Shown: one piece after another, positions 1 through 48,081 of the stretch
How positions within the stretch are numbered: position 1 is the stretch's first letter
How the letters are laid out: every line of letters begins with the position of its first letter
Sequence record: PP944860.1
Reading direction: 5' to 3' (one strand)
DNA: 48,081 nt
Origin: Escherichia phage AN_ECEAS
Notes under the pieces: generated by a model
What the model saw: the letters and a program-made list of their open reading frames with translations, nothing else
What the model was told of the DNA's origin: nothing
Databases searched by the model: none
Translations under genes and position numbers: made by a program

Positions 1-75
1 TTACTTCCAGTGCTTGGTTTCTTAATCCCATTCATCACAACCGAGCAGGAATGGTCAGTTGAGTTTAACCCTCTA
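1..75. repeat. terminal direct repeat (identical to 48007-48081)
   Basis: Exact 75-bp identity of the two window ends. Confidence 0.95.
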
Positions 76-25441: not shown

Positions 25442-25915
25442 TTACTCTTTAGCTTTTCGTGCTGCTTCGTTAGCGGCCTTAATCTTGCGCCATGATCGAC
25501 ACTCTGGCTTGGTGGCTAGCTCTGCTTCAGTAACTACGCGAAGCATATGACGCTTCTTACATCGAAGTGTTAGCGGCTTACCGTTTCCGTCGAATTGCAG
25601 GTCTGGTCGGCAGAACGTAGCTCGAAATCCTTCCTTATTTCTCTTATACGCATTGTGAGCTTTCTGCGCTCCTCGAGCCGAAATCATCCCGCGATCAAAC
25701 CATTGCTCTACAGTCTGGTGAGATACGTTTAACTGCTTTGCGATGTTCGCCTTTGTTCCATAGAAATCAAGAACCATCTCCAGGCGAGCACGTAGCCCAG
25801 CCTTTACCTCATCTTTCAATACGTAGTAGCCTGACGGTCGTTTGCGTTGCTTCTTGTCTTGTGTGCGTACCGTTCCGTTATTGCCGTTAATAGTTCGTTT
25901 GTCAATTTCACACAT
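25442..25915 (-). CDS. HTH DNA-binding protein (candidate transcription regulator)
   Basis: Basic protein with HTH-like segment IAKQLNVSHQTVEQWF; its RBS region abuts dyad motif 25928-25946. Confidence 0.4.
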   Translation of the reverse strand: MCEIDKRTINGNNGTVRTQDKKQRKRPSGYYVLKDEVKAGLRARLEMVLDFYGTKANIAKQLNVSHQTVEQWFDRGMISARGAQKAHNAYKRNKEGFRATFCRPDLQFDGNGKPLTLRCKKRHMLRVVTEAELATKPECRSWRKIKAANEAARKAKE

Positions 25916-26011: not shown

Positions 26012-29000
26012 ATGCTTCCAGTAGAGCGCTTAGTGGCAAACTTTGATCAAGAGAAAATCAAACAGATTCAGAAAGATTACCAGTTTGGAGACATAACTCC
26101 TTACGAATTCCAGTGTGTAACATTTGACGCAATTGGTAAGGCTATTGGTAAGTACGAGGCTCCATTCATCGCAGACCTGTCTGTATCTGCTGGTAAAACA
26201 ATAATTCTTGCCATGATTGGGAAAAGAATGGAGCAACTTGGACTTCCTTATATGGTACTGTCTCGCCAGTCAGAGATTATCAGCCAGAACGCAGAGGAAC
26301 TCCGTAACTTCGGTATCCGTAATAGCGTCTATTGCGCTGGACTTAACGTTAAATCAGTTTACTACCCAACCATAGTGGCTAGTGAGGGTACAGCTGCCAA
26401 TGGCCTGTTTAAGGGGCTTGGTGACTATGTTCCTGCTGTTATCGCGATAGATGAGTGCTTAACTGGAGACACGATGATAACCACCGATTCAGGGATGATG
26501 AGGATTGATAGCGAAGACCTTATCAATCATAAAATAAAATGCATAAACGAAAGCACTGGTGATTACTTCTATCATAAGCCAAAAAGAGTTTTTACTAATG
26601 GTGTAAGACATGTATCATCAATTAAATTAGAAAGCGGAGAGGAAATAAAATGCACGAGTACACACAAACTTTATTCGAACGGCTGCTGGGTAGGAGCGGG
26701 AAAACTTCGTATTGGGATGAATCTGTCGCTAGACGGCTCGCAGGACAAATTTACGAAAAAGCTCCTGCGTGCAAGTGTGGCTGTGGTGAAAAAGTTATGC
26801 CGCATTCAAGCAAGGGGTTAGGCGTACTTCTTAAGAACCCTTTCGATTTCTATTTGGATTACAGAACGGGGCATCATAATTCAACCGTCAACCCATCAAT
26901 GGAGGTTGATGACTTTTTACATCAAAACATTCTTGCGGCAATGGCTGGTGATGGTTGCTTGATTAAAAATACAGAAAAAGGAACGCATAGGCTATCTTGG
27001 AATATGGGAAATAAGGAGCACGCACTAAGCAAGGTTGAAAGGTTTGCAAAACTAAACCCTAGATACAGGGAGAAGAAAAACCCTGGATTTGGCGACAACT
27101 GGTTTTGCGTATCAACATCATGTACGAAAGTTCTGGATTCATATGCTGATAAGTACGGAAATTCTAAGGATGGTTACGATATTGGAAAGATATGCAGAGA
27201 GCTTGATCCAGTTGGTTGGGCTGCTTACTTTGGTGATGATGGTCATTGCACTGTAAGCTCAGGGAAGAGGGTTGTAGAAATCCACACCGAATCATTTAGC
27301 AGGCGTGAAGTTCAATCAGTAGTTGATGCGCTAATAGCATTTATTGCTAATGACGGAGTTAATGTTAGAAGCTATATTGGCGGCAAGAAAAAGAGAGAGC
27401 TTTACTCAGTATCAATAACAACGAGGTCGGCACAAGATGAGTTTTTTAAGAGAATTAGTAAGCACATGGAAAATGGCGTGGAATACAAAATCAAGCAAAA
27501 TTAAAGACATCTCACCCATTGGCAAGGAACTTGTTTGGGATATAGAGATGCCTGAGCACCATAATTTCATTGCTGACGGGGTCGTGGCACATAATTGCCA
27601 CATGGTGGACCATATGGATATCGTAGAAGCTGAAGAGAATGAGGAAACATTCGAGCAGATGAGCACGAAGAAGGGTGAGATGGTCTTTAAGGATGGTGTG
27701 AATACCGGGCTTCTTGGCACTGGTCGCGCGCAATACACGTTAATCATTACCGAAATGAAGCGTCGATGCAAGGAGAAGTACGGTCGCGAACTTCGTATCT
27801 TTGGGTTAACTGGTAGCCCGTACCGTAACAACGACCACATTGTAGTTAGTAACCCAAATGTCCGTGGATTCTGGCGCAAAACTGTAATGCAAGTGCCAAC
27901 CAGCTACCTTGTTGACTTGGGGTTCGTTGTTCCTACTGTCTACGGTGAAGTTGGTGATTTGGGCTACGACCTTAGTGAGTTCACTCCTGATGGAAGTGAT
28001 GGGGTTAAGGACTTCAGCAAGAAAGAAATGGATGCGATGGCTGCAAAGATTCACGAAAACCAAACGATGACACAAAAGATAATGGGATTTGCTGCTAGGT
28101 TTATGGAAACAAGGAATGCTGCATTGGTAACTTGCGCTGGCAAACAGCATTGCGAGGAGGCGGCAGCCGCACTTCCAGAAGGTGTTACTTGGGCGATAGT
28201 TACCAACTCCACTGGTGATAAGAAGCGTAGAGAGATACTTGAGAAGGCAGCCAGCGGAGAATATAAGTTCATATTTCAGATTGGTTGCCTCACAACTGGC
28301 GTAAACTGCCCCCCGTGGGATACAAGCATTATCCTGAGGAAGGTTGGTAGCATTACTCTACTCATTCAGTTGCTTGGTCGTGGTATGCGTATCCTTAAGA
28401 AGAAGCACAAAGAAGCTGGAATGGTAAAAGATGACCATGTTGTTCTTGATTTTGCCGGGACGCTTGACGATATGGCAGAACTCTACTTCGACCCAATTAT
28501 AGAAGAGGTTCAGGACCAGAAGTTTAAGTCATCCAGGAAAGGGGGTGATGAACCAAGAATTTGCCCAGCATGTTCTTATGAGAATTCTCCTTTCGCACGG
28601 CGCTGTAATAATGTGATTGACGGTAAACGATGCGAGCATTTTTTTCAGTTCCGTCTTTGCGAAGATATTGAGGACCCGCAGACGAAAGTTATCGTTAAGA
28701 AAGGTTGCGGAGAGAAAAATGACGTTGCAGCAAAGAACTGCCGCTGCTGCGGAGAGATGCTGATAGACCCAAATGCAAAGCTATCTGGAAAAATGTATCG
28801 GAAAGGGGACTGGTTGAGAGTTTATGACTTCAAGATTGGGTTGACAAAAAACCAGTCAGGGATCGTTGCTTCATATGAGGTAATGGCTCATAGTGGAGAT
28901 AAGTTCCGAGCTTATGAAACATTCTTCCCGGAGTCAGACCATCGTGTTTGTTCTGTCAAATGGAAGGCGTTTTGCTCAACTCACATCGAGAACAGGACTG

Positions 29001-29146
29001 AGGCTTTTAGGATTGGCAGATTGCGTAATGCTAAAATGATTATGACAAATGCACATCTTTTCCGTGCGCCGCTAAGGATTACGCACCGCAAGAATCAGAA
29101 GTCGCAAGATATTATCGCCAACAAATCATTTACGATGGAGGATTGA
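26012..29146 (+). CDS. SF2 DNA helicase interrupted by an intein in motif II (exteins 26012-26455 and 27596-29146)
   Basis: Walker A SVSAGKT; DE|CH box restored on splicing; motif VI QLLGRGMR; C-terminal zinc ribbons; reading frame is not continuous through the intein. Confidence 0.7.
26456..27595 (+). mobile_element. intein with LAGLIDADG homing-endonuclease domain (endonuclease domain in a different frame)
   Basis: N-terminal CLTGDT and block B TSTH; C-terminal ...HNFIADGVVAHN followed by Cys; two LAGLIDADG-like motifs ILAAMAGDGCL and WAAYFGDDGHC in ORF 26650..27504. Confidence 0.75.
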
Positions 29147-35195: not shown

Positions 35196-36779
35196 TTACC
35201 CCAGCAATCGTGGATTAATGTAAATTTTATCACCAATCAGGCATGTGTAGTTTTTCTCATCAAGCATAGGAATCAAGTGGTCCTTAATGCGAGTCATAAT
35301 TCCAGCCTGAGCTTCAAAAGGTTTAACCTTGCGTGCAGCCTCATACAACGAGCGAACACCAACAACACCTTTACCATTCTTGCCCTGCTTAATCAGGATA
35401 TCAACCAGCTTGTTCATCTCGGCATTGTCACCAGCATGACCAGCAGCACTAGCTGATGACAAATACGTCTTGCTTAGCTCGTTGAAAATCATAACTGCCT
35501 CCTGCATTGTCTCCAGTTCAATCTCTCTGGACTTCTGCGGGCTAGAGCCAGTTTGTGAGGACCAGTTACGAATAACGTGAAGTACGGAAGCGATGCGGAT
35601 TGCTTGCTTATCAAACTTACCAAGAGCACCGCGCAACATTGTGTGAGAATACTTGCCACCATCACCAAGATGAGGCTCCATCTCCTGACGTGCTCGGTTA
35701 AGGTAACGCATTGATGATGCGCTTACTGTTAGCTTAACCTCTACTTCATTCATAATCTCATGAACAAGACGGAAGTAGTCCGCTTTCAGGCCGCCATCAA
35801 TAGCCTCGTATGTTGAATCACCATTAGCATCAACAAATACGCGGTCGCCAAGGAATGACTTTTCGCGCACCAGAAGGAAACGCTCAGATACACCAATACC
35901 ACGCGCACCAGCATTCATAATGGCATTGATTGTTTCATCCTGAGCAATTACGGAGATGCATCCCATAGCCACAAAGCTCATGTTATTTTCTGCGTTCGCA
36001 CGGGCAATTGACACATTACCTGCATCCCATGCTTTCAGCACGAGCTCGCTGTTCGTTTTCTTAGAGCCATTACCATATGTCATACCCAACAATGAGTTGA
36101 CGCTAGTTGCCTCATCCGAGATTACCGAGAAGTTACCCTGGCGGTTGTTGATTCGCGCAAGGCCTTCTGGTGTAGTATCGGAGACAGGGAATACGATATC
36201 GCACAGCTTCTCAAGTTTTTCCTCCAGGTCTTCTTTATCTTCAAACAATGAAGCCATTTCAGAAGGTGATTTCTCCTGCTTCATCTCTTTAGCCAGGGCG
36301 GACAGTTTAGCCATAATCTTTTTTCGATCACGTTTACGTACTTCATTCAACCGCTCAGTCTCAGCAATCATTGGCGCGATTGCCAGTGAGTTAATGGCTG
36401 ACTTACCAGTTGAAGGAGGCTGGCTCGTCACGACATAAAGAGATGTCGGCTGCTGGGTTCCGTGATACTCAACAGTGAAGCGCCCAAGCATTGCAGCGGA
36501 CACGCAGCCCAGAAAGTGCATATAAGCAGATGACTCAGGGAACTGAACTGAGCGAGCGATGTTGGCTGACAGCTTGCCAACAATATCAATGTCATTACCG
36601 AGTGAGATTACTGGATATTTGTCATTCCCAGCATCAATCTCGACAGGTGCTTTCCAGAATGATTGAGACTGGCGATAACCATTTGCATTAATTGCTACGC
36701 GAAGTGGTGGAAGGTTGTCTGTAGCTGCAATTGCCATAACTTGTTCAACAGATAGTTTATCTTCGTTGAAATCAAACAT
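35196..36779 (-). CDS. P-loop NTPase of unknown function
   Basis: 527 aa with Walker-A-like PPSTGKSA; own dyad-motif promoter. Confidence 0.45.
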   Translation of the reverse strand: MFDFNEDKLSVEQVMAIAATDNLPPLRVAINANGYRQSQSFWKAPVEIDAGNDKYPVISLGNDIDIVGKLSANIARSVQFPESSAYMHFLGCVSAAMLGRFTVEYHGTQQPTSLYVVTSQPPSTGKSAINSLAIAPMIAETERLNEVRKRDRKKIMAKLSALAKEMKQEKSPSEMASLFEDKEDLEEKLEKLCDIVFPVSDTTPEGLARINNRQGNFSVISDEATSVNSLLGMTYGNGSKKTNSELVLKAWDAGNVSIARANAENNMSFVAMGCISVIAQDETINAIMNAGARGIGVSERFLLVREKSFLGDRVFVDANGDSTYEAIDGGLKADYFRLVHEIMNEVEVKLTVSASSMRYLNRARQEMEPHLGDGGKYSHTMLRGALGKFDKQAIRIASVLHVIRNWSSQTGSSPQKSREIELETMQEAVMIFNELSKTYLSSASAAGHAGDNAEMNKLVDILIKQGKNGKGVVGVRSLYEAARKVKPFEAQAGIMTRIKDHLIPMLDEKNYTCLIGDKIYINPRLLG

Positions 36780-36834: not shown

Positions 36835-36853
36835 CATTATCAATTTGTGCTAT
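36835..36853 (-). promoter_or_regulatory. dyad-motif promoter element, variant ATAGCACAAATTGATAATG (minus strand)
   Basis: TATAAT follows 22 nt after the TTGATA arm; upstream of 35196..36779. Confidence 0.5.
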
Positions 36854-37347
36854 TTGCCATGATTTGGGTGATAACCCAGCCTCACCTCTGCAACAATTCT
36901 TGCCTCACATGCAGAGATAAAGTCATCAAAAAAACCAAGGTGAACAGTCTTTCCACCACTCTGTATTGAGGCCCTCCACTTACCTGTTCTTTTGTATATG
37001 GCGACTCCAGTTACACCACTTTTATTATCAAACCTTAATGATGAGTTCATTGAATTCACTTTTTGGGTAACAAGCCTTAGATTTTCAATCCTATTGTCAC
37101 GCCTATTTCCATTTATGTGGTCTATGAATAGACAATCAGGTATGTCTCCATTAGTCATCTCCCATATAATTCTGTGAGCCATTGTGTAGCCGATTCCCTT
37201 ATTGCTAACCCTAACGTACCCGCTTGTTGTAACCTCCGTGTTAACTGGCTTATTTGCATATTTTGTATTCCAAGATTGAGTTCTATCTGACCTCTCCTTT
37301 CTGTACAAAACTGAATCTTTTATATAAAAAATTTCATTCCAGTTCAT
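36850..37347 (-). CDS. HNH homing endonuclease
   Basis: Motif IDHINGNRRDNRIENLRLV plus C-terminal AP2-like region; ATG 37347 overlaps upstream stop. Confidence 0.65.
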   Translation of the reverse strand: MNWNEIFYIKDSVLYRKERSDRTQSWNTKYANKPVNTEVTTSGYVRVSNKGIGYTMAHRIIWEMTNGDIPDCLFIDHINGNRRDNRIENLRLVTQKVNSMNSSLRFDNKSGVTGVAIYKRTGKWRASIQSGGKTVHLGFFDDFISACEARIVAEVRLGYHPNHGK

Positions 37348-37730
37348 GAGTATTTTGCTTCCATTTTGTATGTGCCACACAATGTTTTAAAGCCAACGTC
37401 ATCCCTGTACAGCTGCCATGCAAAGCCACCCTCATCATAGATGTACCCCGCTTGCTGGCCCAGTCCAGAGTGAAGGTTTACGATATATCTCTTGCCTTCT
37501 TTGAAGTCTTTCTTAACTCCTGACTTATGGTTAACATTAGTGCAGTAAAGCGTCTTCGTCTTAATGTATTTCCCACGCTCTTCAAGATTAATCCACTTGC
37601 CATTTTTCTTGATTTGCTCAAATTCAACTTCCTCAGCGACACCGTTAACCCACTGGTGAATCTTTTTAACGCGAGCTTTAAACAGTTTGTTATCGTTGCT
37701 AATCCAATTTTTGGTTATCGTAGTAGTCAT
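37344..37730 (-). CDS. hypothetical protein
   Basis: ATG 37730 preceded by RBS GAAGAGAG and a complete dyad-motif promoter. Confidence 0.45.
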   Translation of the reverse strand: MTTTITKNWISNDNKLFKARVKKIHQWVNGVAEEVEFEQIKKNGKWINLEERGKYIKTKTLYCTNVNHKSGVKKDFKEGKRYIVNLHSGLGQQAGYIYDEGGFAWQLYRDDVGFKTLCGTYKMEAKYS

Positions 37731-37811: not shown

Positions 37812-37956
37812 TTCGTGCCTTCTCAATCGCCTTCAGCATAATCTCGTGAGACTCAAGCAAGTCCTCGTTGAACCAGTCTCCGCAAGGCCACCCCTTCCCA
37901 CTGTAAGCGGCAACAACGCTCAAGTCGTAATAGTTAATGTCAGATGGTAGAAGCAT
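37795..37956 (-). CDS. hypothetical small protein (53 aa)
   Basis: Below track cutoff; RBS AAGGTGA; ends ...NSTNC* inside the downstream promoter motif. Confidence 0.3.
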   Translation of the reverse strand: MLLPSDINYYDLSVVAAYSGKGWPCGDWFNEDLLESHEIMLKAIEKARNSTNC

Positions 37957-38159
37957 TATTCAGTCACCTTAAAAGTTGCAATTCCTGGGATGACTACGTA
38001 ATCAAGGCATTTAAGCGCCTGGAACGTATCGTGGTTCTTGTGCGGACGATCTCCGGTAATAAGGCACATGTCATTTTTAAACTCAGTAGCGTTGTATTCA
38101 GAACCCTTATTGAAGGCATCGTTAAAGTCTTTAATTACGTTCGTGCAAATTAGCTTCAT
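37956..38159 (-). CDS. hypothetical small protein
   Basis: ATG 38159 with RBS AAGGAA; antisense + ORFs rejected. Confidence 0.35.
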   Translation of the reverse strand: MKLICTNVIKDFNDAFNKGSEYNATEFKNDMCLITGDRPHKNHDTFQALKCLDYVVIPGIATFKVTE

Positions 38160-38170
38160 TATCTCATTCC

Positions 38171-38356
38171 TTACCAGGGTAAACATTCGTCGCAGCCGAG
38201 GCCATCGCAGCACAGATAATAATCTTCTGACTGGAATTGCTTAGCCAGGTCGATATCGATGCGTCCGCGTAAAACCATATCAGTATAGTCACTGTTCAAT
38301 CCAATCAGCGCACATTCCTGCTTTAATTGCTCAAATGCTTCGTCTTTAAGTTTCAT
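38171..38356 (-). CDS. hypothetical small Cys-rich protein
   Basis: RBS AGGAGAGGG and dyad-motif promoter 38410-38428; C-terminal CCDGLGCDEC. Confidence 0.45.
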   Translation of the reverse strand: MKLKDEAFEQLKQECALIGLNSDYTDMVLRGRIDIDLAKQFQSEDYYLCCDGLGCDECLPW

Positions 38357-38409
38357 ATCCCTCTCCTCGTTGTTGATGGATTCATTATGGCCTCGTCGCC
38401 AGTTTTTGT

Positions 38410-38428
38410 CATTAGCAAAAAGTGCTAT
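38410..38428 (-). promoter_or_regulatory. dyad-motif promoter element (minus strand), ATAGCACTTTTTGCTAATG
   Basis: Upstream of 38171..38356; iteron block immediately upstream. Confidence 0.55.
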
Positions 38429-38443
38429 TCGTTGGATTTATCT

Positions 38444-38544
38444 ATTGTTGCAGCTATTGCAATGATTATCATGATTATTGCACATATAGCAATATTGCAT
38501 GGAATGCAATGATGTTTTTGATTGTTGCAGAATTTGCAATGATT
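38444..38544. repeat. iteron-like array: ATTGTTGCAG-N3-TTGCAATGATT twice (38444-38467, 38521-38544) plus palindrome GCAATATTGC and ATGCAATGATG between
   Basis: Direct 24-bp repeats ~77 bp apart and TGCAAT-containing dyads. Confidence 0.6.
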
Positions 38545-38664
38545 GATGTGGGGTGAATGAATAGTGGATGAACTACCATACAAGTTGATTTTGATTCTTG
38601 CTGAGCCAATTTGGATATACACGTTATCGAAGTTATGGTGTGTATATGAGGTGCGCTTCCGAAG

Positions 38665-38975
38665 AATCATACACGCCTACCACGCGAGATTACGCAATGG
38701 TTACATAATAATATCTATATATATCAACCTTTTACTATATTATTATTATTATTATATATATGTATGTATATGGTGTAGATTGGTCGTATGGATGGGTCGA
38801 TAGTTTTTCTATGAAAACTACTAATTTTATCTATATAGATACATATGCATACCCCCGGCGAATCCGCGTAAAATCTTACACAGGGTAATTACACCAGCTA
38901 TAGCTGGGCTGAGAGGTCAAAAAGCGTAACCAATGCAGATATAAACACAACATAACACTTGATAACGCGTATATT
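38665..38975. repeat. control region B: paralogue of region A
   Basis: Shares AT-rich (ATT)n block, palindrome CCAGCTATAGCTGG (38894-38907), AAAGCGTAACCAATG and AACGCGTATA boxes. Confidence 0.7.
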
Positions 38976-39028
38976 CATGATACCATGGTTTCATCTTAAC
39001 GAAGAGCAACCAATCAGGAGTAACGAAT

Positions 39029-39550
39029 ATGTCAGAACATAAAGAAGCAGTAAGTTTGGGTGAAATCATTCGATACATGGCGAGTCAGGCGCTCAAGTCA
39101 GAAGACAAAGTGTGCACAGTCCCTGTGACCATGATTGCTCGTCAATACTTCGGCATGAGTCGTGAGACGTTCGTATCGCTAAGTGGTGAGGAGGTTCTAC
39201 CTGGTGGTGAATACCACATGCCAAAACTAAAAGCGTCATACGTTTCAAACACCGTAAGCCGAATGCCTGAGATTAAGGCGGCTGACGTGCGCTCAAGGTT
39301 CTCACTTAGTTTTACCGACTTTGAGGGCGAGAGTGAGACATACTGCGCATCACTTAGCCTGGTTCCTGGCGCTGTAAAATCCGGCTCAAGAAGCAAAGCA
39401 GAGCAAGAGAAGGAGGCGGCTACCATTGAAAGGTTCAAGGCTCGATTGTTGAAACTATCACCAAGCGTCGCTGGTCTTGAAGGTGATGAACTTAAGGGTG
39501 CAGTATCAATGATTAACGCATACCAGGAAATGATTAAGGAGACTAAATAG
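39029..39550 (+). CDS. hypothetical early protein (first gene right of control region B)
   Basis: ATG 39029 with RBS AGGAG. Confidence 0.5.
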   Translation: MSEHKEAVSLGEIIRYMASQALKSEDKVCTVPVTMIARQYFGMSRETFVSLSGEEVLPGGEYHMPKLKASYVSNTVSRMPEIKAADVRSRFSLSFTDFEGESETYCASLSLVPGAVKSGSRSKAEQEKEAATIERFKARLLKLSPSVAGLEGDELKGAVSMINAYQEMIKETK

Positions 39551-39651
39551 TAGGTATCCTAGTAGACTACCATACCACTTTCGGTACGGTGAGGAGGAGG
39601 TTGAGGCGGCTATGGAGTTTTATCGGAAAGCTAAGTCACTCCTGAATGGAA

Positions 39652-41313: not shown

Positions 41314-41736
41314 ATGAAATTAAGCAAATCTCAAAGGGAAGAGTTGAAGGGCAAGTTCGGTGGTCGCTGCGCTTATTGTGGGTGTGAACTACCTGAGAAA
41401 GGCTGGCATGCTGACCATGTTGAACCGGTGCTACGTAAATCTGAGGTATGCATGAAGGCAGCGGAGAAAGGAACTTTCAAGCTGAAGGCGACAGGTGAGT
41501 TTAATCGACCACAAGCTGATCGAATGGAAAACCTTTACCCTGCATGTGCTCCATGCAACCTCATGAAAACTTGCTATTCCCTTGAAATGTTCAGGGAACA
41601 GGTGTCTCTTCAAGTCGCTCGCGGGCGTAAGAGCAGCATGAATTTTCGCACGGCAGAGCGGTTCGGCCTCATCTCCATAGTGGAGGATCCAGTTGTTTTC
41701 TGGTTTGAGAAGTTTGAGCAAATTAACAAAATCTGA
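41314..41736 (+). CDS. HNH nuclease (zinc-binding, McrA-like)
   Basis: CAYCG...HADHVEP...NLYPACAPCN motif set. Confidence 0.6.
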   Translation: MKLSKSQREELKGKFGGRCAYCGCELPEKGWHADHVEPVLRKSEVCMKAAEKGTFKLKATGEFNRPQADRMENLYPACAPCNLMKTCYSLEMFREQVSLQVARGRKSSMNFRTAERFGLISIVEDPVVFWFEKFEQINKI

Positions 41737-43928: not shown

Positions 43929-44453
43929 ATGAAAGACGAAAACTTCACCAGTCAGGCGCAGGAAAAGGTCAGCTCTGGCAACTTTAAAGCCATGTACAAT
44001 AAAAAGTACTCAGACATTACAACGCTAGCCAAAAACCGAAGCATGACACCCGAACAGCTATTTGAATTCGCCGTGAAATACTTCTCATGGGCTGAGGACC
44101 AGGCAATCAAGGCAATCGAGACAGCCAGCTTCCAGGGTGTGGTAAAAGAGAGCCTGGTGCACAAACCACGAGTCTTCACGCTAACCGGATTCTGCCTTTA
44201 CTGCGGCGTCACCCATAGCGCCATCGAGAAATGGAGGAAGTCGGCTGGTTACGATGAGGTGATGGCATTCATTGATTCCGTGATTCGCGAGCAAAAGTAC
44301 CAGTTAGCAGCGTCCGGCATCATTAACCCTGGCATGATTTCTAAAGAGCTCGGTATCGACAAGCCGCAGGAGATTAACATCACCAGCACATCTTCAGCCA
44401 ACGACGTCGATACGATGAAAGAGGCGCTCGAATCGGTTATTAGCAAGTTGTAG
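43929..44453 (+). CDS. putative terminase small subunit
   Basis: 174 aa, RBS AAGGAGG, immediately upstream of HNH and TerL. Confidence 0.5.
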   Translation: MKDENFTSQAQEKVSSGNFKAMYNKKYSDITTLAKNRSMTPEQLFEFAVKYFSWAEDQAIKAIETASFQGVVKESLVHKPRVFTLTGFCLYCGVTHSAIEKWRKSAGYDEVMAFIDSVIREQKYQLAASGIINPGMISKELGIDKPQEINITSTSSANDVDTMKEALESVISKL

Positions 44454-44520: not shown

Positions 44521-44997
44521 ATGGATTGGGGTGATTTCTTCTATCTTAGTGATGATTCCGTTTCTGGTATAAAGTGGAAGGTTAATAAGGGTCGGTCAAT
44601 GGCTGGTGACGACGCTTTAACATCTGTTGGTAATGGATATTACAAAGGCAGACTCAACCAGAAGACAACGTACGCCCACAGGGTCGTTTACTTTCTTAAC
44701 TATGGCGTAATCCCTGATGTTATAGATCATATGGATGGTAATGGGCTTAACAACTCAATAGAAAACCTAAGGGATGGCACCACAGCCAAGAATATGCAAA
44801 ACAAGCTATGTAAGGGTTACAGCTACAATAAGAGGGATGACGTTTATTATGCTCAGGTAACTACAAATGGGGTGACTAAACATGTAGGTTCTTTTGCAAG
44901 CAAGGAATTGGCTATTGCTGCTTACCTAAAGGAGAAGGAATTGCAGCATGATTTCTATAACAAAGAGAGGAAGATATGCTTGTTTGGGAAAGTATGA
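44521..44997 (+). CDS. HNH homing endonuclease (terminase-associated position)
   Basis: Motif VIDHMDGNGLNNSIENLR plus AP2-like C-terminus; RBS AAGGAGAA; overlaps TerL start. Confidence 0.65.
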   Translation: MDWGDFFYLSDDSVSGIKWKVNKGRSMAGDDALTSVGNGYYKGRLNQKTTYAHRVVYFLNYGVIPDVIDHMDGNGLNNSIENLRDGTTAKNMQNKLCKGYSYNKRDDVYYAQVTTNGVTKHVGSFASKELAIAAYLKEKELQHDFYNKERKICLFGKV

Positions 44998-46538
44998 GCC
45001 AGCAGGAAAAGCTGGCTGTAAAACTTATATCAGAGAATAGTTTTGAGGGATTTTTAAGGTGCTGGTTTTCCATTACTCAGGGTGAGAGATACATCCCTAA
45101 CTGGCACCACAAGTATCTTTGCAGAATCATCGATGAGATTATCGCAGGTGAGCGTAAGGACACAATCATCAACATAGCACCCGGGAGTGGGAAGACAGAG
45201 ATAGCATCAATTCACTTCCCAGCCTACTCCATGGTTAAGTTGAAGAAGGTAAGGAACCTTAACATCTCGTTTGCCGACTCACTTGTTAAGCGTAACTCTA
45301 AGCGAGTGCGTGACCTGATTAAGTCGGTTGAGTTCCAGGAGTTGTGGCCCTGCAAGTTTGGCACATGTAAGGATGATGAGCTACAGATTCTGGATGAGTC
45401 TGGTAAGGTTCGGTTTGAGTCAATATCTAAGGCTGCTGGAGGCCAAATAACCGGCGCAAGGGGTGGATATATAACGGATTCATATAGCGGAGCGGTTCTG
45501 TTAGATGATTTTGACAAACCAGCCGACATGCTTTCTGCTGTTTTTCGCGCTAACAATCACGTGATGCTAAAGAATACAATACGCTCTCGTAGGGCGAGCT
45601 CCGTAAAAGGAAAGGCGACGCCGATTATCTCTATCCAACAGCGCCTTCATGTGAATGATAGTACGTGGTTCATGATGAATGGCGGTATGGGTATTAGCTT
45701 CGACTTGATTAAGATACCGGCGCTCGTAACTGAGGATTACGTCGAAACGCTTCCTGACTGGATTAAGCAGCAATTCATTGATGACGTTCTATCAAGCGAA
45801 TATATTGAGCGTGATGGTGTTAGGTACTATAGCTATTTCCCTGGCAAGGAATCTGTTCACGACCTAGTTGCAATGTGGGATTCTGATAGCTATACATTCC
45901 TTAGCCAGTATCAGCAAGAACCAGTAGCACTTGGCGGCAACCTGATTAACGTAGACTGGCTTCAACGCATTAGCGACACTCTGCGACCGCCAGCTAAGTA
46001 CGATTACAGGTTTATGGTCCTTGATACTGCGATGACAACCAAAAGTTACAGCGACTTTAGTGTCATGCAGCTATGGGGTTATAAGGATGGGAAGATTTAT
46101 CTGCTTGACCAGCGGCGCGGTAAATTTGAAGCTCCTGAGCTCGAGGCTGAGTTATTGAATTTCGAGAAGATGGCTAGGGCATCCAATCAGATAGATGGCA
46201 TCCTTCGTAAAATCATCATCGAGAAGAAAGCCTCTGGTATTGGCCTGATTCAATCAGCCGGAAGGGTTATGCGAACGCCTATCGAGCCGTACGTTCCTGA
46301 TAACGATAAGCTGACTCGCGTAATGAGTGCATTGCCGCAGATTAAAGCTGGTAACGTAATCCTTCCGGAGTCTGCTACTTGGCTTAATGGCTTGCTAACG
46401 GAGATTGCGGCATTCACGGCAGATGATTCACATGTTCACGATGACCAGATAGACTGTTTGACAATGGCTGTCAACCTGGTACTGAACATTGCAGAAGACC
46501 CTAAATCGAGGATGATGCGCCTCGCTGGCATCAAATAG
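44976..46538 (+). CDS. terminase large subunit
   Basis: Walker A IAPGSGKT, Walker B VLLDD, C-terminal nuclease acidic motifs; RBS AGAGAGGAAG. Confidence 0.8.
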   Translation: MLVWESMSQQEKLAVKLISENSFEGFLRCWFSITQGERYIPNWHHKYLCRIIDEIIAGERKDTIINIAPGSGKTEIASIHFPAYSMVKLKKVRNLNISFADSLVKRNSKRVRDLIKSVEFQELWPCKFGTCKDDELQILDESGKVRFESISKAAGGQITGARGGYITDSYSGAVLLDDFDKPADMLSAVFRANNHVMLKNTIRSRRASSVKGKATPIISIQQRLHVNDSTWFMMNGGMGISFDLIKIPALVTEDYVETLPDWIKQQFIDDVLSSEYIERDGVRYYSYFPGKESVHDLVAMWDSDSYTFLSQYQQEPVALGGNLINVDWLQRISDTLRPPAKYDYRFMVLDTAMTTKSYSDFSVMQLWGYKDGKIYLLDQRRGKFEAPELEAELLNFEKMARASNQIDGILRKIIIEKKASGIGLIQSAGRVMRTPIEPYVPDNDKLTRVMSALPQIKAGNVILPESATWLNGLLTEIAAFTADDSHVHDDQIDCLTMAVNLVLNIAEDPKSRMMRLAGIK

Positions 46539-47019: not shown

Positions 47020-48081
47020 ATGGTAAAAGCAGATTCATACGCCACGCAATTTCTTGGTGGCTCCAGTGATGGTAGCGAGATTTACGGGCACTTTGGCAAC
47101 ACGTATCTTACACCTCCTTTCGCTGATTCACTGTACGCATCAAACTCAATTGTACGCCGCATCGTCGACACCATACCGGAGACAGCAATCGCCGCAGGTT
47201 TCCATATCGATGGTATTGATAACGAAGGTGAATTCTGGTCCAGGTGGGATTACCTGAAGGTTAACGAGTCAATCTCTGACGCATGGTCATGGGCGAGGTT
47301 ATTTGGCGGCTCTGCAATTGTGGCTATCGTTAAGGACAATCGTGCGCTAACTAGCCCGGTACGTGAAGGCGCGGAACTTGAATCACTTCGCGTTTATGAG
47401 CGTAGCCAGGTAAGAGTTCAGACTAAGGAGGAAAACCCTCGCAATGTGCGATTCGGTAAGCCATTAACGTATCGCATCACGCCAGAAGGTGGCGCCATGT
47501 TTTATGATGTGCACTACTCGCGAGTTCACATTATTGATGGCGAGAAGATTCCTAGTTCATTGCGTCGCGGTAATGACGGGTGGGGTGCTAGCGTTCTGGT
47601 TCCTGACCTGCTTGAATCAATCAAGGATTATCAGACGTGTGAGAAACTGGCAACTCAGTTATTGCGCCGCAAGCAGCAGGCGGTGTGGAAGGCTAAAGGC
47701 CTTGCTGAACTGTGTGACGACGCGGAAGGTTTTGGTGCGGCGAGGTTGAGGCTTGCCCAGGTTGATGATAACTCTGGCGTTGGTCGCGCGATTGGTATCG
47801 ACGCTGAAGCTGAAGAGTACAGCGTTCTTAACTCGGATATTGGTGGGATTGATGGATTCCTCGATAAGAAGTTCGACAGAATTGTTGCTCTGAGCGGTAT
47901 CCATGAAATCATTCTCAAAGGTCGTAACGTTGGCGGGTTGTCATCAAGCCAGAATACAGCGCTAGAGACTTTCCACAAGCTAATCGACCGCAAGCGCAAT
48001 GAGGAGTTACTTCCAGTGCTTGGTTTCTTAATCCCATTCATCACAACCGAGCAGGAATGGTCAGTTGAGTTTAACCCTCTA
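47020..48081 (+). CDS. putative portal protein, N-terminal part (ORF open at window end, continues at 1..285)
   Basis: ATG 47020 with RBS GGAG; no stop before window end; position after terminase. Confidence 0.5.
   Translation, partial: MVKADSYATQFLGGSSDGSEIYGHFGNTYLTPPFADSLYASNSIVRRIVDTIPETAIAAGFHIDGIDNEGEFWSRWDYLKVNESISDAWSWARLFGGSAIVAIVKDNRALTSPVREGAELESLRVYERSQVRVQTKEENPRNVRFGKPLTYRITPEGGAMFYDVHYSRVHIIDGEKIPSSLRRGNDGWGASVLVPDLLESIKDYQTCEKLATQLLRRKQQAVWKAKGLAELCDDAEGFGAARLRLAQVDDNSGVGRAIGIDAEAEEYSVLNSDIGGIDGFLDKKFDRIVALSGIHEIILKGRNVGGLSSSQNTALETFHKLIDRKRNEELLPVLGFLIPFITTEQEWSVEFNPL
48007..48081. repeat. terminal direct repeat (identical to 1-75)
   Basis: Exact 75-bp identity of the two window ends. 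Confidence 0.95.

What the first reader, a model, noticed from the sequence alone, without database searches (positions are those of the whole stretch)
38444..38544. Iteron-like array unique to control region B, immediately upstream of a leftward promoter
ATTGTTGCAG-N3-TTGCAATGATT occurs twice as a 24-bp direct repeat (38444-38467 and 38521-38544), with the perfect palindrome GCAATATTGC (38489-38498) and ATGCAATGATG between them. The array abuts dyad promoter 38410-38428 and the AT-rich block of region B. This matches the textbook layout of an iteron-type origin or of a multi-site operator.
Basis: partly seen in the sequence, partly recalled or inferred. Interest (0 to 1): 0.65.

Follow-up and report, generated by a model that had tools for sequence, protein, structure and literature searches.

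The report
Four-palindrome array beside phage packaging start
The repeats are real: they are four conserved 15-bp palindromic protein-binding sites lying 30-130 bp to the left of where T1-like phages make the first cut to package their DNA, so they are more likely part of the packaging start signal (pac) than a replication origin, though neither has been tested.

Summary
The window is a T1-like coliphage (Drexlerviridae, 100% identical to phage ES over the 1,701 bases compared). The "24-bp direct repeat + palindrome" is an array of four 15-bp dyad sites, TTGC-N7-GCAA, at 38448, 38478, 38495 and 38525. Spacing is 30/17/30, two-fold symmetric about 38493.5. No shuffle gave such a cluster.

Across 12 related phages the half-sites are 98% conserved and the spacers 70%. 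The region is non-coding, matches no Rfam family and does not fold unusually well.

The array sits where T1-like genomes begin. Two independent PhageTerm termini in relatives (MSK, UDF157lw) map to window 38576 and ~38570, 31-37 bp right of site 4. T1, Rtp, TLS, ESCO41 and SU57 records also open within 38448-38594.

Best reading: the recognition part of the headful-packaging start site (pac), confidence 0.5. Rivals: an operator array for a dimeric regulator (0.2) and a replication origin (0.15). No phage protein (TerS, DUF3987 helicase, Cro-like regulator) co-varies cleanly with the array type, so the binding protein is unknown.

The parts
38384..38412 (-). Leftward promoter P_left: -35 ATGACA (38412-38407), 17-nt spacer, -10 CATAAT (38389-38384). 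It drives the leftward operon that ends with the DUF3987 helicase.
   Evidence: Consensus scan scored it 10 of 12. Both the -10 and the -35 positions are conserved in relatives. It has the same layout as 15 other repeat-associated promoters in the window.
38413..38427 (.). It is one copy of the dispersed Drexlerviridae 21-nt intergenic repeat and is centred about -43 from the predicted start of P_left.
   Evidence: 17 matches in the window against about 1 expected. It fits the TLS consensus aaATAGCACnnnTTGnTAAAA. Each copy is followed by a -10-like hexamer at a fixed distance.
38433..38442 (+). GGATTTATCT. It matches 9 consecutive bases (GATTTATCT) of the core of the P22 pac site (AAGATTTATCTG). 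GATTTAT is kept in most class-A relatives.
   Evidence: Sequence. P22 pac sequence as quoted in PMC11447400 and PMC9611059. Conservation. The small terminase here is a P22 gp3 homologue. This is a lead only; it could be chance.
38448..38462 (.). Dyad site 1: TTGCA-GCTAT-TGCAA.
   Evidence: Half-sites are conserved in 11 of the 12 class-A phages; Rtp alone has TTGA in the left half-site.
38478..38492 (.). Dyad site 2: TTGCA-CATAT-AGCAA.
38489..38498 (.). Palindrome GCAATATTGC, the junction of sites 2 and 3 and the two-fold centre of the whole array (38493.5). T1 and Rogue1 records open at the equivalent of 38494, and Rtp at 38488.
38495..38509 (.). Dyad site 3: TTGCA-TGGAA-TGCAA.
   Evidence: Retained in T1 (record positions 2-16) and in the class-C metagenomic phages.
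38525..38539 (.). Dyad site 4: TTGCA-GAATT-TGCAA.
   Evidence: Retained in T1 (positions 32-46, same 30-bp spacing from site 3) and in class C (31 bp).
38546..38569 (+). Purine-rich G/T patch (GTGGGGTGAATGAATAGTGGAT). Its sequence varies, but a patch of this kind follows the array in the Drexlerviridae clades examined.
38570..38606 (+). Conserved block GAACTACCATACAAGTTGATTTTGATTCTTGCTGAGCC. It holds the inferred first packaging cut (38570-38576) and a second copy of TTTTGATTnTTGC, 73 bp from the copy inside the array.
   Evidence: MSK PhageTerm terminus 36,862 (PMC8421802) maps to 38576. The UDF157lw record was re-opened at its PhageTerm terminus (PMC10838988) and maps to about 38570. The repeat is D4.
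38700..38775 (.). Conserved AT-rich block (ATAATATCTATATATATCAACC..., (ATT)n). It could be a DNA-unwinding element or a cluster of promoters.
   Evidence: Two leftward promoter-like hits at 38779-38751 and 38770-38742.
38959..38986 (+). Rightward promoter P_right (TTGATA-16-TACCAT with an upstream TG) for the DUF7174 gene at 39029.
43929..44453 (+). Small terminase subunit (TerS), a homologue of P22 gp3. It is the expected pac-recognition protein.
   Evidence: PF16677, E = 6e-12; phrog_606; PDB 3P9A, E = 1e-13.
44976..46538 (+). Large terminase subunit (TerL).
   Evidence: phrog_38 and Terminase_6C.
35196..36779 (-). DUF3987 (MCM-like) replicative helicase in the leftward operon. It is the candidate reader if the array is an origin.
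   Evidence: PF13148, E = 1e-40. The family is described as a replicative helicase with a C-terminal winged helix (PMC4889955). A family member has 5'-3' helicase activity (PMC11724360).
25442..25915 (-). Cro/CI-like helix-turn-helix regulator (homologue of T1 ST23), encoded next to the primase. It is a candidate dimeric reader of the palindromes.
   Evidence: phrog_2856, plus sub-threshold P22_Cro and CI_repr hits. At least 85% identical across all class-A phages for which it was recovered.

Best explanation
The array is the recognition part of the pac region, the site where headful packaging of the concatemer starts.

Proposed mechanism:
1. A protein complex assembles on the four palindromes. 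It is either the terminase (a P22 gp3-type small subunit plus TerL) or a dimeric accessory protein that recruits the terminase.
2. The first cut is made about 31-37 bp to the right of site 4, at 38570-38576, just past a purine-rich patch.
3. DNA is then packaged rightward, through the early genes and the terminase genes.
4. Later headfuls are cut without sequence specificity.

The layout resembles SPP1, where contact points flank the cut. A second copy of TTTTGATTnTTGC lies on the far side of the cut.

Shown here: the array is real, unique, non-coding, built of dyad sites and under selection at the half-sites; and genome termini in relatives map next to it.

Inferred: that the array, rather than a neighbouring element, is what is recognised, and which protein recognises it.
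For: (1) Two independent read-based termini:
- MSK: PhageTerm reported headful packaging with a forward-strand terminus at 36,862 (PMC8421802). This maps to window 38576.
- UDF157lw (a different subfamily): its record was re-opened at the PhageTerm terminus (PMC10838988). Position 1 maps to about 38570.

(2) Other record ends and termini fall in 38448-38594:
- T1 position 1, with its 2.8-kb terminal repeat annotated, maps to 38494.
- Rtp maps to 38488.
- ESCO41 is cut at 38447|38448.
- SU57, placed by PhageTerm plus a coverage step, ends at 38593.
- The TLS pac site, mapped through a submolar restriction fragment, lies at the right edge of the homologous array.

(3) The array is unique in the genome. 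It is absent from the bacterial species-representative genomes and the plasmid collection searched.

(4) Block 38407-38606 is the best-conserved part of a 670-bp intergenic region in about 129 phage records. Half-sites are 98% conserved against 70% for spacers.

(5) Every Drexlerviridae clade examined has some short-repeat array at the same spot, between the promoter palindrome and a G-rich patch. T1 and class-C phages keep sites 3 and 4 at the same spacing.

(6) Sd1 and e4/1c share a 93% identical TerS and the array, but differ in the block to the right of the cut. So the array is the shared element.

(7) TerS is a P22 gp3 homologue, and a P22-pac-core-like GATTTATCT sits just left of site 1.
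Against: - There are no end-mapping or binding data for this phage itself.
- The putative helix-turn-helix recognition helix of TerS differs among phages that carry the same array: THSAIEKW, NINRFARW and GHNAISKW.
- Class-A arrays span three TerS clades that are only 61-66% identical, while classes C and F have TerS 62-69% identical but different arrays.
- No alignment column of TerS, or of any other shared protein, separates array-bearing clades from the rest.
- The sites are dyad-symmetric one-base variants of a promoter palindrome. That fits a dimeric transcription-factor-type reader better than a TerS ring.
- A two-fold symmetric array does not by itself explain one-directional packaging.
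- T1, Rtp and Rogue1 record starts may be conventions copied from one another.
- The recognised element could instead be the block at 38570-38606.
Confidence: 0.5

Rival explanations
1. Operator array. The four palindromes bind a dimeric phage helix-turn-helix regulator, for example the Cro-like ST23 homologue at 25442-25915, or the unknown factor that reads the related promoter palindromes. Binding would control the divergent early and middle transcription units: P_left, promoters in the AT-rich block, and possibly read-through into the leftward operon. Proximity to the packaging cut would then be incidental or only regulatory.
For: - Each site is a 15-bp inverted repeat with 5-bp half-sites one helical turn apart, and the spacers are free to vary.
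- The sites differ by one base per half-site from the TAGCA-N5-TGCTA palindrome found about 43 bp upstream of 16 promoters. TWGCA-N5-TGCWA occurs 15 times against 0.29 expected.
- The array lies between divergent transcription units.
- The Cro-like regulator is at least 85% conserved in all class-A phages for which it was recovered.
- The two clades with the most different arrays (NBD2, TLS) have divergent recognition helices in an otherwise similar regulator.
Against: - Site centres lie 78-155 bp upstream of the predicted P_left start and overlap no conserved -35 or -10 element.
- The match between regulator helix type and array type is not one-to-one. C and F helices are nearly identical but their arrays differ, and the GGAATA-type motif occurs with four different helices.
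- It leaves unexplained why termini in five genera fall at or beside the array.
Confidence: 0.2
2. Replication origin. The symmetric four-site array would be the loading platform for the phage initiator: the MCM-like DUF3987 helicase with its C-terminal winged helix, or the Cro-like protein encoded next to the primase. The conserved AT-rich block at 38700-38775 would melt. This resembles the lambda origin (four dyad iterons plus an AT-rich tract) or the palindromic core origins of SV40 and papillomaviruses.
For: - Four dyad sites in a two-fold symmetric layout, with a conserved AT-rich block nearby.
- The array heads the operon that encodes the replicative helicase.
- Every phage pair with helicase identity of 86% or more shares the array class.
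- No other iteron-like cluster was seen in the window, and the TLS authors found no origin elsewhere in their genome.
Against: - There is no experimental evidence for an origin here in any T1-like phage.
- The AT-rich block is 155 bp away, not adjacent.
- NBD2 has a helicase 82-84% identical to class A (C-terminus 74-82%) but a completely different array. T1 has a helicase only 57% identical yet keeps sites 3 and 4.
- The apparent tracking of helicase and array is confounded by linkage: they lie only 1.7-4 kb apart.
- Cumulative GC skew turns at the strand switches of the genes, including the one here, so it gives no independent sign of an origin.
Confidence: 0.15
3. Binding sites for a host protein, such as a nucleoid-associated or LacI/CytR-type factor, that the phage uses to bend or mark the terminal region.
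For: - No phage protein shows residues that co-vary with the presence of the dyads.
- The dyads persist in clades A, B and C, whose phage proteins are only 42-60% identical.
- From memory only: the CytR half-site GTTGCATT resembles TGTTGCA.
Against: - Other clades infecting the same hosts carry unrelated arrays at the same spot, which argues for a phage-specific reader.
- No host factor was tested.
- The array sequence has no match in the bacterial genome contigs searched.
Confidence: 0.05

Closest known systems
SPP1 pac site (pacL-pacC-pacR) and P1 pac site (two clusters of hexamer repeats flanking the cut)
   Same: - A non-coding packaging-start region.
- Several short recognition repeats lie beside, and partly on both sides of, the first cut.
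- Packaging is headful, proceeds in one direction, and gives limited permutation.

The SPP1 description is from PMC9611059. The P1 architecture is from my own knowledge (Sternberg and Coulby).
   Different: - There is no sequence similarity to either site.
- The repeats here are 15-bp palindromes in a symmetric 30/17/30 layout.
- There are no GATC or Dam sites.
- The site lies 5.4 kb from terS rather than in or next to the terminase genes.
- Binding by TerS is untested and is not supported by co-variation.
P22 pac site (22-bp asymmetric GAAGATTTATCTGAAGTCGTTA, read by gp3)
   Same: - TerS here is a gp3 homologue (3P9A, E = 1e-13).
- GATTTATCT occurs at 38434-38442, just left of site 1.
- The TLS authors used the same resemblance (AGATTT) to place their pac site.
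   Different: - P22 pac is a single asymmetric site inside gene 3.
- Here only GATTTAT is conserved among relatives.
- The dominant conserved feature here is the palindrome array, which P22 lacks.
Lambda origin (four dyad-symmetric iterons bound by O-protein dimers, plus an AT-rich tract)
   Same: Four sites, each internally dyad-symmetric, with an AT-rich block to one side (own knowledge; lambda iterons are also mentioned in PMC11447400).
   Different: - Lambda iterons are evenly spaced direct copies inside the initiator gene, with the AT tract adjacent.
- Here the spacing is 30/17/30, the AT block is 155 bp away, and no O-like initiator is encoded.
- Genome termini map here.
Drexlerviridae 21-nt intergenic direct repeat (TLS 'DR', aaATAGCACnnnTTGnTAAAA)
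   Same: - The element at 38413-38427 is a member of this family.
- The array sites share its 5-N5-5 palindromic architecture and 4 of 5 half-site bases.
   Different: - The array sites read TTGCA/TGCAA, not TAGCA/TGCTA.
- They are clustered four-fold and are not each followed by a -10 element.
- Their type varies between clades, whereas the dispersed repeat is constant across the family.

Membership tests
pac site of a headful-packaging phage | Coincides with the unique first-cut terminus of virion DNA. | tested here: met
   Tested indirectly, in relatives only. PhageTerm termini of MSK and UDF157lw map to 38576 and about 38570. T1, Rtp, TLS, SU57 and ESCO41 record ends map to 38448-38594. 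This phage itself was not measured.
pac site of a headful-packaging phage | Occurs once per genome. | tested here: met
   The 24-mer and the dyad cluster occur only here.
pac site of a headful-packaging phage | Specifically recognised by the small terminase, so co-evolution with TerS is expected. | tested here: inconclusive
   No pair of phages with TerS at least 88% identical has different arrays. However, three TerS clades only 61-66% identical share the array, equally divergent TerS pairs do not, and the recognition helix varies within the class. Binding cannot be tested with these tools.
pac site of a headful-packaging phage | Sufficient in cis to direct packaging or transduction of foreign DNA. 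| not testable with these tools
   Needs a plasmid transduction assay.
Iteron-type replication origin | Three or more head-to-tail direct repeats of an initiator-binding site, regularly phased. | tested here: not met
   The units are palindromes spaced 30/17/30 and arranged symmetrically, not regularly phased direct repeats.
Iteron-type replication origin | Adjacent AT-rich unwinding element. | tested here: inconclusive
   A conserved AT-rich block exists at 38700-38775, but it is 155 bp from site 4 and also holds promoter-like hexamers.
Iteron-type replication origin | A cognate initiator is encoded and co-varies with the repeats. | tested here: inconclusive
   The DUF3987 helicase is at least 86% identical in all class-A phages. 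But NBD2 (82-84% identical) has an unrelated array, and T1 (57%) keeps two of the sites. Linkage confounds the comparison.
Iteron-type replication origin | Supports initiation of replication. | not testable with these tools
   No published origin mapping for T1-like phages was found.
Multi-site operator of a dimeric helix-turn-helix regulator | Palindromic sites of 14-17 bp with conserved half-sites. | tested here: met
   TTGC-N7-GCAA occurs four times. Half-sites are 98% conserved against 70% for spacers.
Multi-site operator of a dimeric helix-turn-helix regulator | Sites overlap or closely flank the promoter elements they control. | tested here: not met
   Site centres lie at about -78 to -155 from P_left, and there is no conserved promoter inside the array.
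Multi-site operator of a dimeric helix-turn-helix regulator | A cognate regulator whose recognition helix co-varies with the site. | tested here: inconclusive
   Regulator helices diverge in NBD2 and TLS, which have different arrays. The mapping is not one-to-one elsewhere.
Drexlerviridae 21-nt intergenic repeat (applies to 38413-38427 only) | Matches aaATAGCACnnnTTGnTAAAA, lies between genes, is oriented with transcription, and sits about 70 bp upstream of a start codon. | tested here: met
   The reverse complement of 38409-38430 reads GAATAGCACTTTTTGCTAATG. It lies 72 nt from the start codon at 38356. The four array sites do not meet this consensus.

The most novel reading that the evidence does not exclude
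The array is a specificity-switched, four-fold copy of the phage's own promoter palindrome. A dimeric phage regulator, not TerS, reads it and licenses or positions the first terminase cut, and possibly replication initiation from the adjacent AT-rich block. The terminal control region would then couple the transcription programme to packaging. The different arrays in other T1-like clades would be interchangeable modules of the same switch.
Probability: 0.12. Interest if true: 0.7.

Novelty: new variant of a known kind. Interest (0 to 1): 0.45.

Why it matters
T1 is one of the classical T phages, and T1-like phages are a widespread nuisance in laboratory and industrial cultures. Yet in the papers I could read, neither their pac site nor their origin has been defined at the sequence level:
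- Authors have guessed 'ATATA repeats' or a six-base resemblance to P22.
- One recent paper states that no iteron-like repeats exist.

A precisely delimited array of four palindromes, with the cut placed about 31-37 bp to its right, gives a concrete target for mutation. It would allow three questions to be tested:
- What does a P22 gp3-type terminase actually recognise? How small terminases read pac sites is still an open problem.
- Can pac-based transduction or packaging tools be built for these phages?
- Why do different T1-like clades carry different repeat modules at the same position?

Tried and rejected
- **Protein-coding.** ORFs overlap the array (38327-38512+, 38422-38556+, 38425-38670-). 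Relatives show single-base indels and no three-base periodicity, and nothing is annotated there. Rejected.
- **Structured RNA or DNA.** There was no Rfam hit above noise (best E = 0.73). The DNA fold z-score was -1.3. Rejected.
- **Array type against TerS and helicase.** I compared 20 manually checked genomes and 24 TerS loci. No clean answer. An automated version for the helicase loci picked the wrong repeat copies and was discarded.
- **Residue-level test.** I looked for alignment columns separating dyad-bearing clades (A, B, C) from the others in 29 shared proteins. None was found.
- **Paralogy between the Cro-like regulator and the 111-aa protein** that the TLS authors call a helix-turn-helix protein. 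None.
- **Array outside lytic T1-like phages** (satellites, prophages, plasmids). No hits in genome contigs or plasmids.
- **Anchor searches.** The DUF7174 alignment was too divergent to use as an anchor. A single-protein TerS search gave only 3 loci.
- **Literature.** The T1 (Roberts 2004), Rtp (Wietzorrek 2006) and Casjens-Gilcrease papers are not held. I therefore could not establish how the T1 and Rtp position 1 were defined. The DTL, OzMSK, KanT1 and Rogue1 papers gave no terminus positions.
- **Host-factor ideas** (Fur-box-like TGATTATCATGATTAT, CytR-like GTTGCA) were only eyeballed. The Fur-like stretch is not conserved in relatives.
- **Structure prediction of the helicase C-terminus** was considered but not run, because it would not discriminate between the hypotheses.

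Full report
**Identity of the window.** Window 37900-39600 is 100% identical to Escherichia phage ES (Drexlerviridae, Braunvirinae), and about 25 other T1-like coliphages match parts of it. The first 75 nt of the window equal the last 75 nt, so its ends are an assembly overlap and not physical ends.

The finding lies in a 670-bp intergenic region between two diverging sets of genes:
- On the left, a leftward operon starts at 38356. It contains small ORFs, an HNH gene and the DUF3987 helicase at 35196-36779.
- On the right, rightward early genes start at 39029 with a DUF7174 protein. The small terminase (TerS, 43929-44453), an HNH insert and the large terminase (TerL, 44976-46538) lie 5-6 kb further on.

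The same divergent layout is annotated in IME542, JulesPiccard, CY1, Sd1, 12210I, T1, Rtp and TLS.

**Checking the observation.**
- The 24-mer pattern occurs only at 38444 and 38521. No shuffle produced a match.
- TGCAATGAT occurs three times in 48 kb, all here. TTGCA is about 27-fold enriched.

**Revised anatomy.** The array is four copies of a 15-bp inverted repeat, TTGC-N7-GCAA, more fully TTGCA-N5-TGCAA with an extended half-site A[TA][TC][AG]TTGCA.
- The sites start at 38448, 38478, 38495 and 38525.
- Start-to-start spacing is 30, 17 and 30 bp, so the array is two-fold symmetric about 38493.5.
- Only six perfect TTGC-N7-GCAA sites exist in the window (1.76 expected) and four are here.
- A cluster of four never arose in 2,000 whole-window or 20,000 local shuffles.

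**Conservation.**
- A distant BLASTN search finds this stretch in 129 phage records, mostly at 80-90% identity.
- In a nine-phage alignment, block 38407-38606 is strongly conserved, whereas 38607-38700 and 38780-38950 are not. Indels are not multiples of three.
- Across 12 class-A phages from Braunvirinae, Rogunavirinae and Nouzillyvirus, the eight half-sites are 98% identical to the window and the N7 spacers 70%. That is the signature of protein-binding dyads.
- There is no Rfam match and no unusual single-strand fold (z = -1.3).
- The array has no match in the bacterial genome contigs or the plasmid collection.

**The neighbouring 'dyad promoter'.** TAGCAAAAAGTGCTAT at 38413-38428 is one of 17 matches in the window, against about 1 expected. 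It fits the 21-nt intergenic repeat described for TLS, T1, Rtp and Rogue1 (PMC11447400). Three further points came out of this work:
- The repeat is itself a palindrome, TAGCA-N5-TGCTA.
- Sixteen oriented copies are each followed about 22 nt later by a -10-like hexamer, and often by a conserved CATCGAAA leader. They are therefore promoter elements with weak -35 boxes, which suggests dependence on an activator.
- P_left is one of them: -35 ATGACA at 38412-38407 and -10 CATAAT at 38389-38384.

The array sites have the same 5-N5-5 architecture and differ at one half-site position. TWGCA-N5-TGCWA occurs 15 times against 0.29 expected.

**Location relative to genome ends.** This is the main evidence on function. 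Headful (pac-initiated) packaging is reported for T1-like phages including TLS, MSK, SU57 and UDF157lw. Mapped to window coordinates:

| Phage | Basis | Window position |
|---|---|---|
| MSK | PhageTerm, forward-strand terminus at 36,862 (p = 1.6e-9), none on the reverse strand | 38576 (GGACTA\|CCATAC) |
| UDF157lw (Rogunavirus) | Record re-organised at its PhageTerm terminus | about 38570 |
| SU57 | PhageTerm plus a coverage step | record ends at 38593 |
| TLS | Submolar restriction fragment | record opens at the right edge of its own repeat array |
| T1 | Record position 1; repeat_region 1-2800 annotated | 38494, the array centre |
| Rogue1 | Record position 1 | 38494 |
| Rtp | Record position 1 | 38488 |
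| ESCO41 | Record cut | 38447\|38448, the first base of site 1 |

Some of these record starts may be conventions copied from T1. The MSK and UDF157lw values are independent and read-based, and they agree within about 6 nt. The first packaging cut is therefore about 31-37 bp right of site 4, just past a purine-rich patch and inside a second conserved block (38570-38606). That block repeats the array's TTTTGATTnTTGC motif 73 bp downstream (repeat D4).

**Other clades.** I built helicase- and TerS-anchored loci from IMG/VR. Every Drexlerviridae clade examined has a 120-150-bp array of short repeats between the promoter palindrome and a G-rich patch. The motif type is modular:
- Class A has four TTGC-N7-GCAA sites.
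- T1-like phages have a GGAATAAT/ATTATTCC-type left half plus sites 3 and 4 at the same 30-bp spacing.
- Class C metagenomic phages have a different left half plus sites 3 and 4 at 31 bp.
- Other clades carry TGATGATTG-type, AAGTTGTCAT-type or GACCGATTGGTCTA (TLS) repeats.

**Which protein reads it?**

*TerS.* It is a P22 gp3 homologue (PF16677; PDB 3P9A with E = 1e-13).
- Class-A arrays occur with three TerS clades only 61-66% identical.
- Their putative recognition helices differ: THSAIEKW, NINRFARW and GHNAISKW.
- Classes C and F have TerS 62-69% identical but different arrays.

*DUF3987 helicase.* The family is described as an MCM-like replicative helicase with a C-terminal winged helix (PMC4889955). 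A family member has demonstrated 5'-3' helicase activity (PMC11724360).
- It is at least 86% identical in all class-A phages.
- NBD2 (82-84% identical) has an unrelated array, and T1 (57%) keeps two of the sites.
- It lies only 1.7-4 kb from the array, so linkage confounds the comparison.

*Cro-like regulator (25442-25915).* It is at least 85% conserved in class A. Its recognition helix diverges in NBD2 and TLS, the two clades with the most different arrays, but the mapping is not one-to-one elsewhere.

No alignment column in any of 29 shared proteins separates dyad-bearing clades from the rest. This is the main weakness of every model.

**Interpretation.**
- *pac (confidence about 0.5).* The only experimental anchors, the termini, put the array in the role that the left-hand contact points play in SPP1, where the contacts flank the cut (PMC9611059). 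From my own knowledge, P1 has a similar layout, with repeat clusters flanking the cut. A P22-pac-core-like GATTTATCT at 38434-38442 is a weak extra lead.
- *Operator array (0.2).* The dyad symmetry and the kinship with the promoter palindrome keep this alive.
- *Origin (0.15).* The symmetric four-site layout, the nearby AT-rich block and the helicase operon keep a lambda- or SV40-style origin alive. There is no positive evidence for origin function, and the layout is not that of classical direct iterons.
- *Host-factor site (0.05).* A minor possibility.

The functions need not be exclusive.

**Comparison with what is known.** Packaging-start regions with several recognition repeats are a known kind. 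The papers I could read propose only 'ATATA repeats' or 'AGATTT' for T1-like pac sites, and one states that TLS has no iteron-like repeats. The particular element here has three features I did not find described:
- four palindromes in a 30/17/30 symmetric layout;
- one-base variants of the phage's own promoter palindrome;
- modular replacement of the array between clades.

I rate it a new variant of a known kind, of moderate interest. It turns the undefined pac site (and possibly the origin) of a classical phage family into a directly testable 200-bp target.

Noticed in passing
window 7204, 18492, 24396, 25928, 27334, 29564, 29818, 32299, 33386, 36853, 37811, 38428, 40163, 40839, 44450, 46535: There are sixteen oriented copies of ATAGCAC-N3-TTGnTA (palindromic core TAGCA-N5-TGCTA). 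Each is followed about 22 nt later by a -10-like hexamer, and many by a conserved CATCGAAA leader. This looks like a family of activator-dependent promoters with weak -35 boxes. The activator is unknown.
   Followed up: partly
whole window; 38357-39028: GATC is strongly avoided: 37 sites against about 188 expected, and none in the terminal intergenic region. The homologous arrays of T1, TLS and NBD2 contain several GATC sites, and the TLS paper reports that GATC sites in T1 and TLS DNA are adenine-methylated.
   Followed up: no
window 1-75 and 48007-48081: The first 75 nt are identical to the last 75 nt. This is a circular-assembly overlap, so the unit genome is 48,006 bp and the window ends are not physical termini.
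   Followed up: yes
window 36850-37380, 41314-41736, 44521-44997: There are three HNH endonuclease genes. One sits between TerS and TerL. None of the three has a counterpart in Msk or 12397V, so they are probably mobile homing endonucleases.
   Followed up: partly
window 26012-26821 and 27437-29146: The homologue of the T1 ST22 ATP-dependent helicase appears as two ORFs, with an overlapping 284-aa ORF (26650-27504) between them. Relatives align to only about 58% of the first piece. This may be an insertion or an intein-like element.
   Followed up: no
L001 (phage ES record OR466728): Product names in the ES annotation look misassigned. For example, 61-67-aa ORFs are called 'DNA helicase' and small ORFs are called 'capsid maturation protease' or 'endolysin'.
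   Followed up: no
L013 880-1003 / L012 1-60 (TLS junction): TLS carries two tandem GACCGATTGGTCTA palindromic repeats and GATTTGATT repeats at the position homologous to the array. The TLS paper states that no iteron-like repeats exist in the genome.
   Followed up: partly
window 36683-36697: A single hybrid palindrome, TTGCATTAATTGCTA (one array-type half and one promoter-type half), lies inside the 5' end of the helicase gene.
   Followed up: no
window 38463-38478: TGATTATCATGATTAT between sites 1 and 2 resembles an E. coli Fur box. Relatives have GATTCACATGATTAT, so it is probably fortuitous.
   Followed up: no
MK9072xx records (43 near-identical 44,219-bp phages): Six of the 43 assemblies are opened within about 300 bp of the array, where about 0.5 would be expected by chance. 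This is consistent with a coverage discontinuity at a physical end near here.
   Followed up: partly
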